Positions 2,142-14,539 of a stretch of DNA of 38,517 bases are shown here, one piece after another. The DNA is taken from positions 1 through 38,517 of IMG/VR virus record IMGVR_UViG_2713897161_000001, one strand, 5' to 3'. Under the pieces are notes generated by a model. It was not told the DNA's origin, ran no database searches, and saw only the letters and a list, made by a program, of their open reading frames with translations. The translations under genes and the position numbers were made by a program. This DNA is from a virus (Duplodnaviria; Heunggongvirae; Uroviricota; Caudoviricetes). The first letter of the stretch is position 1. Each line of letters begins with the position of its first letter.

Positions 2142-2449
2142 GCAGCTTCTCCAGAAATGTGTCTGCGTTTGAATATTGCGAAGGCATATTCAGCCTTAAC
2201 TCTTTCGGTTATTGCATCCCAGAACCATTCAGCGGCTTTTTCCTGATAGTTACAGTCATCATCTTCCAGCCAGTCGATAGCGTCCTTAGTGTGTTCATCT
2301 GGTTTATATGAGCGAAGCATTTCGCTTATTGGGTCGCAACGTTTGCAGAGGCGATCAACTTCACTGTTGATTCGCTCGTAATCTTCATCAGTAAAACTTG
2401 CGATTATTTGCGATATTTCACGCTTATCATTCAGAGTCAGAATCATCAT
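2138..2449 (-). CDS. Hypothetical phage early protein (103 aa)
   Basis: ORF with 4-nt overlap to recT start; part of operon. Confidence 0.5.
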   Translation of the reverse strand: MMILTLNDKREISQIIASFTDEDYERINSEVDRLCKRCDPISEMLRSYKPDEHTKDAIDWLEDDDCNYQEKAAEWFWDAITERVKAEYAFAIFKRRHISGEAA

Positions 2450-2667
2450 CTTTCTCCTGTTCTTTGTGCTGATTGAGCATTTTGTTCATCTGACGAATGA
2501 ATTCTTCGTCTGACCAGTTATCTGTAAAACTCATTTCCTGCGATACCACGGAATGTTGATCGCTGATTTCATCGCTTTATTTGCTTCAAGCCACATTTTG
2601 GAATCACCAATAAATCTGGCTATTACTGCTTTGTTTTGTGCCGCACGAAGCATCTGGTGATTAATGG

Positions 2668-2802
2668 CTATTTCATTGCGCATAACGCCTCCAGTTGTTT
2701 CTTTGCTGCTCTGATTAATTGTTTAACACGGCGTGATAATTCAGATTCGTGCGGGTAGAAAGCGGACATGACGCCGCTACCCGCGAGCTGAAAGTGCATC
2801 AT
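2668..2802 (-). CDS. cIII-like protein (44 aa)
   Basis: Internal ATGATG start preceded by AAGGAG RBS (reverse complement of 2803-2820); peptide MMHFQLAGSGV...ESELSRRVKQLIRAAKKQLEAL resembles the lambda cIII core helix region as recalled; upstream part of listed ORF 2668..2907 rejected. Confidence 0.45.
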   Translation of the reverse strand: MMHFQLAGSGVMSAFYPHESELSRRVKQLIRAAKKQLEALCAMK

Positions 2803-2865
2803 GGGTAACTCCTTATATTTGATTGCATAACGAAAACGCCTCGAATGAAGCGTTATTGGTATGCA

Positions 2866-2892
2866 TATAAAAAGGCCCTCACACTGGAGGGC
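2866..2892 (-). terminator. Candidate intrinsic terminator (tL-like) upstream of cIII-like gene
   Basis: Hairpin GCCCTC/ACACTG/GAGGGC at 2875-2892 followed on the minus strand by a T-rich run (plus-strand ATATAAAAAG). Confidence 0.4.
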
Positions 2893-2996
2893 AAAGAAGA
2901 TTTCCAATAATCAGAACAAGTCGGCTCCTGTTTAGTTACGAGCGACATTGCTCCGTGTATTCACTCGTTGGAATGAATACACAGTGCTTATTTGTA

Positions 2997-3467
2997 CTAA
3001 TAAAATACCCAATTTTCTGTTTCTTGGTTGTGTCCAAAGTTATATTCAATATCTGGTGTTGATGTATCAATATTTTTCATCCCATCAACAAGAGTTGATA
3101 CAACAGCCAAATCTTGTTTTATTCTCATTAAATGGTATTTCTTCCGGCGCAATAAACTTTCAATAGCAAGTTTCTTCGTTGGGAATGCAAAAGATCTTTC
3201 TGCATTTTTTGCTACTTTCTTAATTGCATATCTATTTCTCCTTTGTTTCCATTCCTGTAACCACTGATTTGGTGCTGGTTTAAAATTAACAATCCAATGC
3301 GCAGGAACCAACCATGCATAATGCTCTGTCTGATGAAAAGCTATATATTGAAGTGCGAATATTTTTATCCCATCTTCTTCAACTGTCGCCTGGAATCTCC
3401 AGAAAACAGGCATTCCATCATGTTCAGTTTCTGATTCAGGAAAAGGTACGCTCCATGATTTTGTCAT
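2997..3467 (-). CDS. Hypothetical accessory protein (156 aa) in AT-rich segment
   Basis: ORF within a visibly AT-rich stretch (about 2930-3340) between cIII-like gene and N; no recognisable family. Confidence 0.5.
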   Translation of the reverse strand: MTKSWSVPFPESETEHDGMPVFWRFQATVEEDGIKIFALQYIAFHQTEHYAWLVPAHWIVNFKPAPNQWLQEWKQRRNRYAIKKVAKNAERSFAFPTKKLAIESLLRRKKYHLMRIKQDLAVVSTLVDGMKNIDTSTPDIEYNFGHNQETENWVFY

Positions 3468-3529
3468 ATCTCACCTCAAATAAGTGGTTTGCTGCCAAAA
3501 CAATGAACCATCCGGAAATTCCAGATAGT

Positions 3530-3757
3530 TCATAATTCACTCTTCAATACTTCCAACTTACTAATCGCCGATAGATATCCGCGCTGATAGGGCATCATCA
3601 TTCCTTCGAGCTTGCCACTTCTTAACTCCTCCCTGAGCAATTGTATTGCTTGATCAATAACCTCTGCCTTAGCGTCCTTTATGGCTTGCTTGCGGGGCTT
3701 TGCTTTCTGCTTTGGCAGATTTCTCAAGCATGATGGAATGTATGTCTGATTCATCAC
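3530..3757 (-). CDS. Hypothetical protein (75 aa) immediately downstream of N
   Basis: ORF abutting N stop; basic, coiled-coil-like; no family recognised. Confidence 0.4.
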   Translation of the reverse strand: MMNQTYIPSCLRNLPKQKAKPRKQAIKDAKAEVIDQAIQLLREELRSGKLEGMMMPYQRGYLSAISKLEVLKSEL

Positions 3758-4141
3758 TTACCTCGCTGTCAGTTGTTTTGATTTCCGGTAGCCTGCCGCG
3801 TAAATGGCTACGTTTGGAAGACATACACCAGTTTCTGGTTGCTTATGTCCAAACTCATTCGCGTACACAATGGCCGCTCGCTCCAGATTGCGTCTGTATT
3901 CTTTCTGTTGCCAGATCACGTCCTGTGCCATGAACTTAATTGGCTTAGCGTCTTCTATGCGCTCAGGCGTTTCGTGAGTACCTTTAGCCTGAATCTGCGC
4001 TCTGCTTAGAGTAGGGCGGTGTAATACTTCTGAACTTATTGCTTCTTCGCGGGCCAGCACGCCGTTAGCTAATGCCTTTGCCTTTAAACGCTCACGACGA
4101 CGAGAACGTGAATTGCCTTTGAACTGAGTTCTGCGTGTCAT
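3758..4141 (-). CDS. N: N-type transcription antiterminator (P22 gene 24-like)
   Basis: Arginine-rich motif near N-terminus (RSRRRERLKAKALA) and C-terminal end ...YAAGYRKSKQLTAR resembling P22 N as recalled; canonical boxB hairpins lie upstream in both nutL and nutR positions. Confidence 0.75.
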   Translation of the reverse strand: MTRRTQFKGNSRSRRRERLKAKALANGVLAREEAISSEVLHRPTLSRAQIQAKGTHETPERIEDAKPIKFMAQDVIWQQKEYRRNLERAAIVYANEFGHKQPETGVCLPNVAIYAAGYRKSKQLTAR

Positions 4142-4306
4142 ATAGACCTCCTGATGAACTTTGGTGGTGTGGTAGGTGGGAGACCCATTTCGACCTGTTT
4201 CGGCCTACTTTAATTCGGCAATAGTCCCGCAGGCCTCGCCGCTTTACGTGCGACATATTCCCGTCCATGAACCCTTCACCACACCCCAAAGTTCACTTTG
4301 GTTATT

Positions 4307-4321
4307 GCGCTTTGTCAGCGC
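4307..4321 (-). promoter_or_regulatory. nutL boxB hairpin
   Basis: Reverse complement reads GCGCTGACAAAGCGC, a 5-bp stem with GACAA-type loop matching the P22-type boxB as recalled; lies between putative pL and N. Confidence 0.6.
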
Positions 4322-4399
4322 CGTAGATTCATATTCGAATCGTTGTATATTCACCGCCCTGGTGAGTAGTGCGTCCTGCTGATGGGTAAACTTTATCGG

Positions 4400-4450
4400 A
4401 ATGATAAATTAATGGCAATAGCAAAATGATAAATTCTTTTGATTTTCAAA
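4400..4450 (-). promoter_or_regulatory. OL/pL operator-promoter region (putative)
   Basis: Two TGATAAAT motifs (4402-4409, 4427-4434) and near-palindrome TTTTGATTTTCAAA (4437-4450), the same motifs that occur between cI and cro. Confidence 0.4.
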
Positions 4451-4607
4451 TATCGTATTGATTCTTATGGTGTTTTATTTTGTTGTAGGAATTCGACAGG
4501 ATAAATAAAGAGATTTGAGGGAGATCTGGATTGCGTGGTTTAGCAAGTTGTATCAATCAGTTTTTCAATAAATACAATTGGTTATGTGTTTTTAGGTGGG
4601 GGATCGT

Positions 4608-4637
4608 GAGGCAAAGAAAACCCGGCTCTTGGCCGGG
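4608..4637 (-). terminator. Intrinsic terminator after KilA-N gene (end of cI operon)
   Basis: Hairpin CCCGGCTCTTGGCCGGG at 4621-4637; on minus strand followed by TTTTCTTTGCC. Confidence 0.55.
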
Positions 4638-4645
4638 AATAACAT

Positions 4646-5407
4646 TTAGGAATCAAGGTCAGGTAGCATGATTTTCTCAATCAACGTCAATGCCCTTTGG
4701 TCTCGTTCAGCAAAATATTTAGGAGCGTACTGAGGCAGCCACACTTCGTTGAAGTGTTGTTTGAAATCTGCAAGATATTCGTTTGGGTATAGACGTACCG
4801 GGAATGTCCGGCCATCTGGGTACTCATGGTTATATGTTGGGAATGTCTTCGGCTCAACCCCCCGGTTGTCACGGAGCCATTGCGAGAAAACCCTACCCTC
4901 TGAAATATCAGGGACCATTTTTTCTGGCAGCGTATATCCGGCCTGTTCAAGTGGCGCAACCAAGTTAAACGTCAGTTCATTAAGCATAGAAAAGTGCGTA
5001 TGAGGAACTCTGCCTCGGTTTGTCATATACCGCTTAAGGTGGATAGGGAGTTCGGCAGGCGCTCTTTCACCTGACATCCACTCACGCACCCATCTCGATA
5101 CTTGCACTGCAAATTTTGGAGATAGCCACTGAGCTAAATTAATTGCGATGTCTGGATGAACCCAAGTCCCTTGATTCTCTGCTCTTCCGCCTTTAAATGA
5201 TTGAATTAACTCCGATATGGGAATCCCCATATCGCGTGATAATTCATCAAAAAAATCTTGTGTTGTTTTTAGTCGTGTATAGTCAGCAAGTAGCTTCCCC
5301 GCAGACTTGCACATCGCGGTGGCATTGATGTATCCGTCTTTGGTGCGAAGATGGATGACTTCTCCATCAACTTCTCTAGCGATTAATGCAAGTTGAAACT
5401 GTGTCAT
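4646..5407 (-). CDS. KilA-N domain protein with uncharacterised C-terminal domain
   Basis: 253 aa; N-terminal region (HLRTKDGYINATAMCKSAGK) recalled as KilA-N/APSES-type domain; directly downstream of and co-oriented with cI. Confidence 0.65.
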   Translation of the reverse strand: MTQFQLALIAREVDGEVIHLRTKDGYINATAMCKSAGKLLADYTRLKTTQDFFDELSRDMGIPISELIQSFKGGRAENQGTWVHPDIAINLAQWLSPKFAVQVSRWVREWMSGERAPAELPIHLKRYMTNRGRVPHTHFSMLNELTFNLVAPLEQAGYTLPEKMVPDISEGRVFSQWLRDNRGVEPKTFPTYNHEYPDGRTFPVRLYPNEYLADFKQHFNEVWLPQYAPKYFAERDQRALTLIEKIMLPDLDS

Positions 5408-5489: not shown

Positions 5490-6194
5490 TCACGAACTTT
5501 TCAGCCACTCCCTTGCCTCGATGTCATCCAGATGGCGAGATTGCTTCAGAATACCAGCCACATACTCCACCTTTGCTACTTGATGATAAGGCAACGTTAT
5601 TGGCCTATGGTCCTGGTTGATGCTTGTAAACTGGTATTCTCCGTCTCTGTCATAGCCAAGAACTTTGATCATGTTGTGTCCTTCAACGGTTCTGACAAAC
5701 ACCTCATCACCCGGGAATACTTTGGTGTTAGGCTCAATGAGTACATATTCTCCTGATTTTATTCTAGGCCACATGCTGTCTCCTTTCACACGAAGACCAA
5801 AGGCATCTGGATCATCGCTATAAATTTTGAGCCACCCATCGCGCTCTTCGGTCATCTCGATGGCACCATCAACACCAAGAATTGCCTCACCAACCACGCG
5901 CACTAACCCTTTTCTTACCTGACCGACAAAAGTTAAAGAATCTGAGCATGATGCAATTGGTGTTACATCATGTACCAAATCAAGCCACCCATTAGGTAAC
6001 CCAAGTGCGGCTTCAAATTTTCTTGCTAGTTTATCCCCTATGTTTCGAGTGCTTTTTTCACCGGAGACTTGCGTGAGTTGAGAAGGGCTAACCCCAAGCT
6101 TATCGGCAAAGCTTGCATTAGTGTTACCCGCGATTTTTTTATGCTCATCTAGCAAAAACGCCAGATTCGATTTGCGAATATCTTTGTTTTCCAT
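5490..6194 (-). CDS. cI: cI-type repressor (HTH DNA-binding domain plus LexA/S24-like autocleavage domain)
   Basis: 234 aa; N-terminal HTH-like region, C-terminal S24 peptidase-like segment (GDSMWP...EYVLIEP, NMIKVL); divergent from cro across an operator-rich intergenic region. Confidence 0.85.
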   Translation of the reverse strand: MENKDIRKSNLAFLLDEHKKIAGNTNASFADKLGVSPSQLTQVSGEKSTRNIGDKLARKFEAALGLPNGWLDLVHDVTPIASCSDSLTFVGQVRKGLVRVVGEAILGVDGAIEMTEERDGWLKIYSDDPDAFGLRVKGDSMWPRIKSGEYVLIEPNTKVFPGDEVFVRTVEGHNMIKVLGYDRDGEYQFTSINQDHRPITLPYHQVAKVEYVAGILKQSRHLDDIEAREWLKSS

Positions 6195-14383: not shown

Positions 14384-14458
14384 GGGTCAGTCGTATAAAG
14401 GTCATTACGGAAGGCTGTTAACCTTCTTATCGTGGTTCGAGTCCACGCTGTCCCGCCA
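14384..14458 (+). tRNA. tRNA-Asn (anticodon GTT), phage-encoded
   Basis: Manual fold: acceptor GGGTCAG/CTGTCCC (one mismatch), anticodon stem GAAGG/CCTTC with loop CTGTTAA (anticodon at tRNA positions 34-36), T-arm CGTGG-TTCGAGT-CCACG, 3' GCCA. Confidence 0.6.
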
Positions 14459-14463
14459 AACAT

Positions 14464-14539
14464 GCTGGTTTAGCTCCAATGGTAGAGCGGTCGCCTTGTA
14501 AGCGAATGGGTAGCGGTTCAAGTCCGTTAACCAGCACCA
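14464..14539 (+). tRNA. tRNA-Thr (anticodon TGT), phage-encoded
   Basis: Manual fold: acceptor GCTGGTT/AACCAGC, D-arm GCTC-CAATGGTA-GAGC, anticodon loop CTTGTAA, T-arm AGCGG-TTCAAGT-CCGTT, 3' ACCA. Confidence 0.65.

What the first reader, a model, noticed from the sequence alone, without database searches (positions are those of the whole stretch)
2930..3470. AT-rich accessory ORF (156 aa) between the cIII-like gene and N
The segment is conspicuously AT-rich compared with neighbouring early genes and encodes a protein with no recognisable family, in the region where lambdoid phages carry variable accessory genes (restriction alleviation, exclusion). A candidate terminator at 2866-2892 lies just downstream, so expression may depend on N antitermination.
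Basis: partly seen in the sequence, partly recalled or inferred. Interest (0 to 1): 0.5.

Follow-up and report, generated by a model that had tools for sequence, protein, structure and literature searches.

The report
Uncharacterised early phage gene behind N
The AT-rich 156-codon ORF is a real and very common lambdoid-phage accessory gene (HK97 gene 45, 933W L0079) that sits just behind the antiterminator gene N; its function is untested, and its small basic protein has a predicted fold unlike any solved structure.

Summary
ORF 2997-3467 (minus strand, 156 aa) has 35.2% GC. That is the lowest of any 471-nt stretch and of 36 ORFs in a 50% GC window.

It is a real gene:
- It has a strong Shine-Dalgarno site.
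- dN/dS is 0.07-0.16.
- The AlphaFold model has pLDDT 94.8.

It is not new as a sequence. It is 99% identical to HK97 gp45 and 100% identical to Phi24B vb_24B_11c, and its DNA is 98-99% identical to the 933W L0079 region. It belongs to PHROG 1636 ("unknown function") and occurs in 598 of 5,426 complete E. coli genomes.

It moves as a 635-bp cassette (2865-3499): SD, gene, a 14-bp hairpin and an intrinsic terminator. In 73 of 77 viral contigs an N gene of one of three types lies upstream; in 51 it is within 120 nt. The downstream neighbour varies.

The protein is soluble and basic (net +11 over residues 75-130). The Phi24B copy rises 43-fold on prophage induction.

My best reading is a dispensable early lytic-phase accessory protein that probably binds nucleic acid, for counter-defence or host takeover. 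That function is inferred, not shown.

The parts
2865..3499 (-). Mobile cassette: 32 nt of leader with SD, the 156-codon gene, a 3' hairpin and an intrinsic terminator
   Evidence: blastn breakpoints against 933W (2865-3499, 98.4%), H-19B (2869-3499, 98.7%) and phi367 (2826-3483). The five-phage alignment is invariant up to the terminator stem and diverges right after it. The 3' UTR co-travels in 68 of 72 IMG/VR loci that have enough downstream sequence.
2997..3467 (-). CDS, 156 aa. Equals HK97 gp45, 933W L0079 and Phi24B vb_24B_11c; PHROG 1636
   Evidence: ORF listing. PHROG 1636 E 2.7e-112. 155/156 identical to HK97 gp45; 156/156 to vb_24B_11c. dN/dS 0.07-0.16. AF2 pLDDT 94.8, pTM 0.81.
3471..3477 (-). 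Shine-Dalgarno sequence GAGGTGA, 3 nt before the ATG
   Evidence: Read directly from the sequence. The leader is identical in 933W.
2950..2987 (-). Strong hairpin starting 10 nt after the stop codon (14 contiguous pairs, no U tract). Probably a 3' stabiliser or processing site
   Evidence: RNA fold dG -21.7 kcal/mol, z -7.6, matched by 0 of 200 shuffles. Invariant in HK97, 933W, H-19B and phi367.
2865..2892 (-). Intrinsic terminator: GCCCUC-cagugu-GAGGGC followed by CUUUUUAUAU.
   Evidence: Terminator scan. Fold dG -10.7, z -2.7. Same site annotated 'putative terminator' in HK97. Stem conserved, with a U tract retained in both junction variants. It is the first convincing intrinsic-terminator match downstream of pL in HK97 and 933W; the only other hit is a weak 5-bp hairpin inside N.
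2835..2854 (-). Second terminator-like hairpin just upstream of cIII. It lies outside the cassette and is shared with HK97 and phi367
   Evidence: Scan. Fold dG -9.9, z -3.8. Alignment.
3503..3533 (-). 14-bp hairpin followed by UGUUUUGG, overlapping the stop of ORF75, upstream of the gene. Possibly a tL1-like terminator specific to phages with the ORF75 insert
   Evidence: Scan. Fold dG -20.3, z -5.9. Absent from the 933W N-L0079 spacer.
3530..3757 (-). ORF75, a separate small cassette between N and the gene (PHROG 5305, unknown function)
   Evidence: Present in phi367 and mEp506, absent from 933W, HK97 and H-19B.
3758..4141 (-). Antiterminator gene N (933W/HK97 type), the conserved upstream neighbour
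   Evidence: Pfam N_peptide E 2e-15. 99.4% nt identity to the 933W N region. An N homologue lies upstream in 73 of 77 loci.
4307..4373 (-). nutL, assigned by homology only
   Evidence: The 933W record annotates nutL at L001 4176-4242. Window 3760-4382 aligns to L001 3629-4251 at 99.4%.
2668..2802 (-). cIII, the first gene beyond the cassette's terminator
   Evidence: Pfam PF08134 E 2e-30.

Best explanation
The segment is one more copy of a common, uncharacterised lambdoid accessory cassette (HK97 gene 45, 933W L0079, Phi24B vb_24B_11c; PHROG 1636).

Shown:
- It is a real protein-coding gene under purifying selection.
- It travels as a 635-bp unit (SD, gene, 3' hairpin, intrinsic terminator) with no room for its own promoter. 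It must therefore be read from pL.
- It sits behind the antiterminator gene N whichever N allele is present, while its downstream neighbour varies. Many lambdoid phages lack it, so it is dispensable.
- An identical copy in Phi24B goes from near-silent in the lysogen to 43-fold higher on induction, in step with the other pL genes.
- The product is a soluble, basic 18.6-kDa protein with no membrane segment. Its confidently predicted alpha/beta fold has no detectable relative among solved structures. About 87 distant clusters, all unannotated, exist in other phages and prophages.

Inferred:
- The protein acts early in lytic growth or induction, not in the lysogen.
- It binds a polyanion, most likely DNA or RNA, otherwise an acidic host protein. 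The binding surface would be the conserved basic face of strand 4 and the long helix (superfamily consensus K-x3-RFA-x-TK-x2-A-x3-L-x2-RK-x2-QL-x-HL-x-R-x-L).
- Its role is host takeover or counter-defence.
- Its place as first gene after N, ahead of the first convincing intrinsic terminator in HK97 and 933W, suits a function needed as early as N itself.
- The terminator at 2865-2892 makes cIII, kil and the recombination genes N-dependent, not this gene.
For: Identity and prevalence:
- PHROG 1636 E 2.7e-112.
- 99% identical to HK97 gp45 and 100% to vb_24B_11c.
- Present in 598 of 5,426 complete E. coli genomes. The exact protein was seen on at least 1,000 contigs.

Real gene:
- SD site.
- dN/dS 0.07-0.16.
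- 40 invariant residues across 20 homologues of 55-85% identity.
- pLDDT 94.8.

Cassette and position:
- Breakpoints at 2865 and 3499; 3' UTR alignment.
- An N homologue upstream in 73 of 77 loci, within 120 nt in 51. Downstream neighbours are ea10/ssb, gene 17, a 322-aa gene, or cIII directly.
- No sigma-70 match upstream on the coding strand.

Expression:
- vb_24B_11c rises 43-fold on norfloxacin induction, against cro 45x, cIII 70x, gam 137x. Lysogen-expressed stk (1.8x), res (1.2x) and bor (1.4x) stay flat (PMC4651098 SI Table 4).

Terminator logic.

Protein properties:
- pI 9.07; net +11 with 15 K/R in residues 75-130; superfamily median pI 9.0.
- Superfamily-wide basic positions: 24, 75, 83, 84, 87 (98% basic), 92, 98 and 109.
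- Highest 19-aa hydropathy window 0.56, so no TM helix.

Orphan status:
- Pfam, NCBIfam and PADLOC give nothing.
- BFVD gives 12 hits at E<1e-3, all uncharacterised.

Context of distant homologues:
- Early-left operons running toward int, among recombination genes and orphan DNA methylases.
- Or lone inserts elsewhere in the genome.
Against: - No experiment on any member of the family was found.
- The basic patch is the only pointer to nucleic-acid binding. No known DNA- or RNA-binding fold or motif was detected.
- The superfamily-conserved E46 is Q in this subfamily. That argues against catalysis but says nothing positive.
- Placement next to N could reflect recombination hot-spots rather than function. 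More distant homologues in other genera are not next to an antiterminator.
- The Phi24B fold change carried P = 0.273 in the authors' test. So did exo, bet, gam and ssb.
- Rho-dependent termination between N and the gene cannot be excluded by sequence scans.
- 'Counter-defence' rests on guilt by position only.
Confidence: 0.5

Rival explanations
1. A regulator or helper of the phage's own development. It would be a DNA- or RNA-binding protein that tunes pL transcription, the lysis-lysogeny choice, recombination or replication, rather than acting on host defences.
For: - The conserved basic face fits nucleic-acid binding.
- The gene always lies in the regulatory and recombination arm: next to N and cIII here, and next to RecE, Erf, SSB or YqaJ genes in distant homologues.
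- It is induced together with early genes.
Against: - Lambda-type development proceeds without it in lambda itself (own knowledge of the lambda map), mEp506 and Sp5.
- No HTH, RHH or other regulator fold was found.
- It combines freely with three N types and with Bet/Exo, RecT or Erf recombination modules, so no phage partner is conserved.
Confidence: 0.2
2. A specific anti-restriction (Ral-like restriction-alleviation) function.
For: - The slot holds ral in lambda (own knowledge) and in phi367.
- The gene is first after N, so expressed very early.
- Distant homologues often lie near orphan DNA methylases.
Against: - No similarity to Ral or to any solved anti-restriction protein.
- phi367 carries ral and this gene side by side, so they are not alternatives.
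- The protein is basic, unlike DNA-mimic anti-restriction proteins such as Ocr and ArdA (own knowledge; pI).
Confidence: 0.1
3. A prophage-borne defence gene (superinfection exclusion or abortive infection, in the manner of SieB or Rex) that benefits the lysogen.
For: - The slot holds sieB in lambda and P22 (own knowledge).
- The gene is AT-rich and terminator-bounded, like a moron.
- In two distant phages it sits as a lone opposite-strand insert within structural genes.
Against: - The cassette has only 32 nt of leader and no promoter match.
- The Phi24B copy behaves like a repressed pL gene rather than a lysogen-expressed one.
- No TM segment and no PADLOC match.
- Homologues exist in virulent-type phages, such as N4-like and Ackermannviridae-like entries in BFVD.
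Confidence: 0.1
4. It is not a functional gene: a chance ORF, or decaying passenger DNA in an AT-rich spacer.
For: The composition is deviant and no function is known.
Against: - dN/dS 0.07-0.16 with saturated synonymous sites between genera.
- 40 invariant residues.
- A high-confidence structure from a 63-sequence alignment.
- A strong SD site.
- A length of 156-159 aa kept across Escherichia, Salmonella, Pectobacterium, Brenneria and Rosenbergiella.
- The plus-strand ORFs overlapping it recur only in near-identical DNA.
Confidence: 0.02

Closest known systems
HK97 gene 45 / 933W L0079 / Phi24B vb_24B_11c (PHROG 1636, 'unknown function')
   Same: The same gene. Protein identity is 99% to HK97 gp45 and 100% to vb_24B_11c; DNA identity to the 933W L0079 region is 98-99%. 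The position behind N, the 3' hairpin and the terminator all match.
   Different: Only the neighbours differ. This window has an extra 75-aa cassette between N and the gene, and cIII follows directly as in HK97. 933W adds ea10/ssb and H-19B adds gene 17.
Morons of lambdoid phages (as defined for HK97/HK022: promoter, gene and terminator inserted between conserved genes, with deviant composition; own knowledge of Juhala et al. 2000)
   Same: It is a discrete insert between genes that are adjacent in other phages. Its GC is 9-15 points below its neighbours and it ends in an intrinsic terminator.
   Different: No promoter of its own was found, and only 32 nt of leader travel with it. It is induction-dependent rather than lysogen-expressed.
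Other occupants of the lambda N-cIII slot: Ral, SieB, Ea10; P22 gene 17
   Same: Same genomic slot, same pL transcription unit, and equally dispensable and mosaic.
   Different: No sequence or fold similarity to any of them. The gene co-occurs with ral (phi367), ea10/ssb (933W) and gene 17 (H-19B), so it is not an allele of these. Unlike SieB, it has no TM segment.
PHROGs 13631, 25384 and 28215, and BFVD models from Erwinia phiEa2809, Achromobacter phiAxp-3, Delftia RG-2014, and Rhizobium, Sinorhizobium, Cellulophaga and Tenacibaculum phages
   Same: Distant homologues of 130-160 aa with the same predicted fold. They share the signature (Y/W)R...G...ET...K...RFA.TK..A...L..RK..QL.HL.R.L and a basic pI.
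   Different: Only 18-26% identity. This subfamily has Q in place of the conserved E46. It ends in the GH-type C-terminal tail (YNFGHNxETExW.F), which only some distant members share. Genome contexts differ. None is characterised.

Membership tests
PHROG 1636 / HK97 gp45 family | Full-length sequence match to the family profile and to named members | tested here: met
   E 2.7e-112 over 1-156 of 156. 155/156 identical to HK97 gp45 and 156/156 to Phi24B vb_24B_11c.
PHROG 1636 / HK97 gp45 family | Position in the pL operon directly downstream of N, followed by the conserved 3' hairpin and terminator | tested here: met
   In this window a 75-aa cassette lies in between.
Moron (promoter-gene-terminator insert) | Deviant base composition relative to flanking genes | tested here: met
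   35.2% against 44.3% for early-left neighbours and 50.2% for the window. Also 5-10 points below flanks in five other loci.
Moron (promoter-gene-terminator insert) | Intrinsic terminator at the 3' end of the insert | tested here: met
   2865-2892.
Moron (promoter-gene-terminator insert) | Own promoter allowing expression from the repressed prophage | tested here: not met
   No sigma-70-like site on the coding strand between 3468 and 4389. The shared leader is only 32 nt. The Phi24B copy is 43-fold induction-dependent. A consensus scan cannot exclude a weak or non-canonical promoter.
Ral (restriction alleviation) | Sequence similarity to Ral, or mutual exclusivity with ral in the slot | tested here: not met
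   No Ral PHROG or Pfam hit. It co-occurs with an annotated ral in phi367.
Ral (restriction alleviation) | Alleviation of type I restriction in vivo | not testable with these tools
   Needs plating assays.
SieB/Rex-type prophage exclusion proteins | Membrane association or a match to a known defence-system model | tested here: not met
   Highest 19-aa hydropathy window 0.56. PADLOC best E 0.018, which is noise.
SieB/Rex-type prophage exclusion proteins | Expression in the lysogen | tested here: not met
   Indirect evidence from the identical gene in Phi24B, which behaves like repressed pL genes.
Nucleic-acid-binding proteins (functional class) | Conserved positively charged surface | tested here: met
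   Net +11 in residues 75-130. Basic residues are conserved across the superfamily at eight positions.
Nucleic-acid-binding proteins (functional class) | A recognised DNA/RNA-binding fold or motif (HTH, RHH, AP2/Int-arm, OB, Sso7d-like) | tested here: not met
Nucleic-acid-binding proteins (functional class) | Measured binding to DNA or RNA | not testable with these tools
   Needs EMSA, ChIP or CLIP.

The most novel reading that the evidence does not exclude
gp45/L0079 would be the best-sampled member of a phage-restricted superfamily with a fold that has no solved relative (PHROGs 1636, 13631, 25384, 28215). That superfamily would be a new class of early effector. In E. coli lambdoid phages it would be co-transcribed with N, ahead of the first intrinsic terminator. 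It would bind nucleic acid, or an acidic host factor, to neutralise a host defence or nuclease.
Probability: 0.2. Interest if true: 0.65.

Novelty: already known. Interest (0 to 1): 0.35.

Why it matters
The gene occurs in about 11% of complete E. coli genomes, in up to four copies, and in many Shiga-toxin phages: 933W, H-19B, Phi24B, BP-4795, Min27 and numerous Stx1a and Stx2a phages. No function has been assigned since it was first annotated in 933W (AF125520) and HK97 (AF069529).

Three results make it a workable target:
- It is a self-contained cassette that sits behind N whichever N allele is present.
- It probably belongs to the earliest pL transcript in HK97 and 933W.
- Its protein has a confidently predicted fold with no solved relative and a conserved basic face.

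If it proves to be a counter-defence or host-takeover factor, it would bear on Stx-phage host range and induction biology. It would also annotate about 87 protein clusters in other phages.

As it stands, the finding is an ordinary known unknown, not a discovery.

Tried and rejected
Family and structure searches that found nothing:
- Pfam, NCBIfam and PADLOC scans of the protein. A Pfam scan of all 63 superfamily members gave only noise.
- PDB sequence search with the single sequence and with the profile gave nothing below E 0.1.
- The first AF2 model, from 20 close homologues, was poor (pLDDT 59.5) and was not used. The 63-sequence alignment gave pLDDT 94.8.

Ideas considered and dropped:
- Ribbon-helix-helix or HTH. 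The predicted secondary structure does not fit.
- A conserved partner gene. All-against-all comparison of ORFs from 17 loci found none.
- Multi-domain relatives. P0066 (940 aa) is a repetitive protein and the match is spurious.
- Known RNA families in 2300-4800. Rfam found none.

- The search for related loci could not use the distant alignments, which had no conserved stretch.

Literature:
- Searches for L0079, HK97 gp45, vb_24B_11c, and the slot between N and cIII found no functional study.
- The one useful item was the Phi24B RNA-seq supplement.

Full report
**1. Observation**

The minus strand carries an ATG-started ORF at 2997-3467 (156 aa). It is preceded by GAGGTGA, 3 nt before the ATG.

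- Its GC content is 35.2%. The window averages 50.2% (sd 5.3) for 471-nt windows, and the only stretch at or below the ORF's value is 2891-3471.
- Among 36 ORFs it is lowest in both GC (z -2.8) and GC3 (25.5%, z -2.7). The other early-left genes average 44.3 +/- 2.8%.
- The candidate terminator at 2866-2892 is real. It has a 6-bp GC-rich stem and a 6-nt loop followed by CUUUUUAU, with dG -10.7 kcal/mol.

**2. It is a real gene**

- Twenty full-length homologues of 55-85% identity, from Escherichia, Salmonella, Cronobacter, Pectobacterium, Brenneria, Rosenbergiella and metagenomes, keep a length of 156-163 aa and share 40 invariant residues.
- Where synonymous sites are not saturated, dN/dS is 0.07-0.16.
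- A 63-sequence alignment gives an AlphaFold2 model with mean pLDDT 94.8 and pTM 0.81.
- The plus-strand ORFs that overlap it recur only where the DNA itself is nearly identical.

**3. It is already catalogued**

- It matches PHROG 1636 ('unknown function') end to end, E 2.7e-112.
- It is 155/156 identical to HK97 gp45 and 156/156 identical to Phi24B vb_24B_11c.
- Its DNA is 98-99% identical to the 933W L0079 region. The ORF is present but unannotated in H-19B.
- 85 phage records hold at least 80% of the protein.
- 598 of 5,426 complete E. coli genomes carry it, in up to four copies, always annotated 'hypothetical protein'.
- The exact protein was seen on at least 1,000 contigs.
- The HK97 record annotates a 'putative terminator' at exactly the position of the window's 2892-2869.

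**4. Anatomy of the cassette**

blastn breakpoints against 933W, H-19B and phi367 fall at about 2865 and 3499. The shared unit consists of:

- 32 nt of leader carrying the SD site;
- the gene;
- a 14-bp hairpin at 2950-2987, starting 10 nt after the stop codon (dG -21.7, z -7.6, no U tract);
- the terminator stem.

The five-phage alignment is invariant up to the last base of that stem and diverges just beyond it. Both junction variants keep a U tract.

Among 80 IMG/VR loci that encode the identical protein:

- 73 of the 77 with upstream sequence have an N homologue upstream (933W type, phi367 type or Huey type). In 51 it lies within 120 nt.
- The 3' UTR co-travels in 68 of the 72 loci with enough downstream sequence.
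- The downstream neighbour varies: ea10/ssb, P22-type gene 17, a 322-aa gene, or cIII directly.

mEp506 and Sakai Sp5 hold other small genes in the slot. The gene is therefore a dispensable, mosaic cassette with a fixed address behind N. It coexists with ral (phi367), ea10/ssb (933W) and gene 17 (H-19B), so it is not an alternative allele of those.

**5. Transcription logic**

- No sigma-70-like site lies on the coding strand between the gene and the pL region. The 32-nt leader leaves no room for a promoter inside the cassette. The gene must be read from pL.
- nutL maps to 4307-4373 by 99.4% identity to the annotated 933W site.
- In HK97 and 933W the scan finds nothing between N and the gene. 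Its only other hit is a weak 5-bp hairpin inside the N coding sequence. The first convincing intrinsic terminator downstream of pL is therefore the one after this gene.
- In those phages the gene may be part of the N-independent immediate-early transcript, unless rho-dependent termination occurs, which sequence scans cannot reveal.
That terminator gates cIII, kil and the recombination genes.
- In this window the inserted ORF75 cassette brings its own hairpin at 3533-3503 (dG -20.3, z -5.9, followed by UGUUUUGG), upstream of the gene. That could make expression N-dependent here.
- Published RNA-seq of a Phi24B lysogen shows the identical gene rising 43-fold on norfloxacin induction. Compare cro 45x, cII 47x, cIII 70x, kil 84x and gam 137x. 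Lysogen-expressed stk (1.8x), res (1.2x) and bor (1.4x) stay flat (PMC4651098, SI Table 4).
- Its P value was 0.273, the same as for exo, bet, gam and ssb.

**6. The protein**

- It is 18.6 kDa with pI 9.07, seven Trp and no Cys. The highest 19-residue hydropathy window is 0.56, so there is no membrane helix.
- Residues 75-130 hold 15 K/R and a net charge of +11. Both termini are acidic.
- The model has long antiparallel strands at 19-30, 33-46 and 50-55, two short helices, a short strand at 83-86, a 33-residue helix at 98-130, and an ordered aromatic C-terminal tail.
- An exhaustive profile search of 1.84 billion representatives found 87 clusters at E<1e-3. Most are proteins of 130-160 aa. 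All 63 aligned members hit PHROG 1636, and subsets hit PHROGs 13631, 25384 and 28215, all 'unknown function'.
- Positions conserved across the superfamily are (Y/W)23, R24, G33, E46 (Q in this subfamily), T47, K87, A101 and K109. Basic residues also recur at 75, 76, 83, 84, 92, 98 and 108.
- The median pI of the superfamily is 9.0.

**7. No known relative**

- Pfam, NCBIfam, PADLOC and PDB sequence searches give nothing.
- Foldseek against 350,542 PDB chains (releases to April 2026) gives a best E of 1.0.
- BFVD gives 12 matches at E<1e-3, all uncharacterised. They come from Erwinia, Achromobacter, Delftia, Rhizobium, Sinorhizobium, Tenacibaculum and Cellulophaga phages.
- A second database search with the profile returned only 'hypothetical protein' names.
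- No paper on the gene's function was found.

**8. Context of distant homologues**

- In Pectobacterium, Marinobacterium, Pseudomaricurvus and another prophage, the homologue lies in the early-left operon that runs toward xis/int. Its neighbours are small unknown genes, recombination genes (YqaJ, SSB, RdgC) and orphan DNA methylases.
- In Vibrio phage PvVp04 and Pseudomonas phage Skulduggery it lies near RecE-like genes.
- In Pseudomonas phage Touem01 it lies 0.8 kb from a DNA methylase.
- In Salmonella phage NX263 and one metagenomic phage it is a lone insert, or the first gene of a short opposite-strand operon, among structural genes.
- No partner gene is conserved.
- In every one of five other loci the gene's GC is 5-10 points below its flanks. 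AT-richness is a property of the family.

**9. Interpretation**

Shown: identity, coding status, cassette structure, address behind N, dispensability, induction-linked expression of an identical copy, a soluble basic protein, and no relative among solved structures.

Inferred:
- The protein acts during lytic growth or induction.
- It binds a polyanion through the conserved basic face of strand 4 and the long helix.
- It serves host takeover or counter-defence.

The grounds for the inferred role are positional. This slot and these operons are where lambdoid phages keep inhibitors of host functions: Ral, Gam, Kil and CIII (established lambda biology, own knowledge). Expression as early as N also suits such a role. 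The E-to-Q change at the most conserved acidic position argues against catalysis.

The rivals are a phage-development regulator, a specific anti-restriction function, a prophage defence gene, and a non-gene. They are weighed in the Rival explanations section. None is excluded except the non-gene.

**10. Verdict**

The feature is an already catalogued gene of unknown function, and an ordinary occupant of a known variable slot. Interest is modest. The gene is very common in Shiga-toxin phages, its predicted fold has no solved relative, and its address behind N is conserved. These make it a reasonable experimental target, but nothing here shows a new mechanism.

Noticed in passing
window 4646-5407 (-), with terminator 4637-4621: A BstA-like abortive-infection gene with a KilA-N N-terminal domain lies between cI (5490-6194) and the pL/nutL region. 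This is where 933W has stk and lambda has rexAB. Scores: PHROG 6287 E 1.8e-82, PADLOC BstA E 2.5e-20.
   Followed up: partly
window 3530-3757 (-) and hairpin 3503-3533: A 75-aa ORF (PHROG 5305, unknown function) forms a separate cassette directly after N. Its stop codon lies inside a 14-bp hairpin followed by UGUUUUGG. It is present in phi367 and mEp506 and absent from HK97, 933W and H-19B. The exact protein is recorded from Salmonella enterica.
   Followed up: partly
window 2950-2987 (-): A hairpin with 14 contiguous pairs starts 10 nt after the stop codon of the 156-aa gene (dG -21.7, z -7.6). It has no U tract and is invariant in five phages. It may be an mRNA 3' stabiliser or an RNase III site.
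   Followed up: partly
window 14384-14458 and 14464-14539 (+): Two adjacent phage tRNA genes, tRNA-Asn(GTT) and tRNA-Thr(TGT). A 2026 preprint read for another reason reports that phage tRNA-Thr(UGU) copies counteract the P2 OLD tRNase. No link was tested here.
   Followed up: no
window 4300-4600: This is a second AT-rich stretch (GC 0.35) with an unusually strong G>C skew on the plus strand (+0.32). It covers the presumed oL/pL/nutL region, including a pL-like promoter match at 4418-4390.
   Followed up: no
L021 (E. coli Sakai Sp5) 4721-4972; L015 (mEp506) 2205-2762: The same N-cIII slot holds unrelated small hypothetical genes in phages that lack the 156-aa gene: ECs_1180 (83 aa) in Sp5 and three small ORFs in mEp506. 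The slot may be worth a systematic catalogue.
   Followed up: no
L007 (Salmonella phage NX263) 3501-5901: A 64%-identical homologue heads a short operon that runs opposite to the surrounding structural genes. The operon also contains genes annotated 'DNA binding protein', a MarR-family regulator and a 'DNA polymerase III beta subunit'.
   Followed up: no
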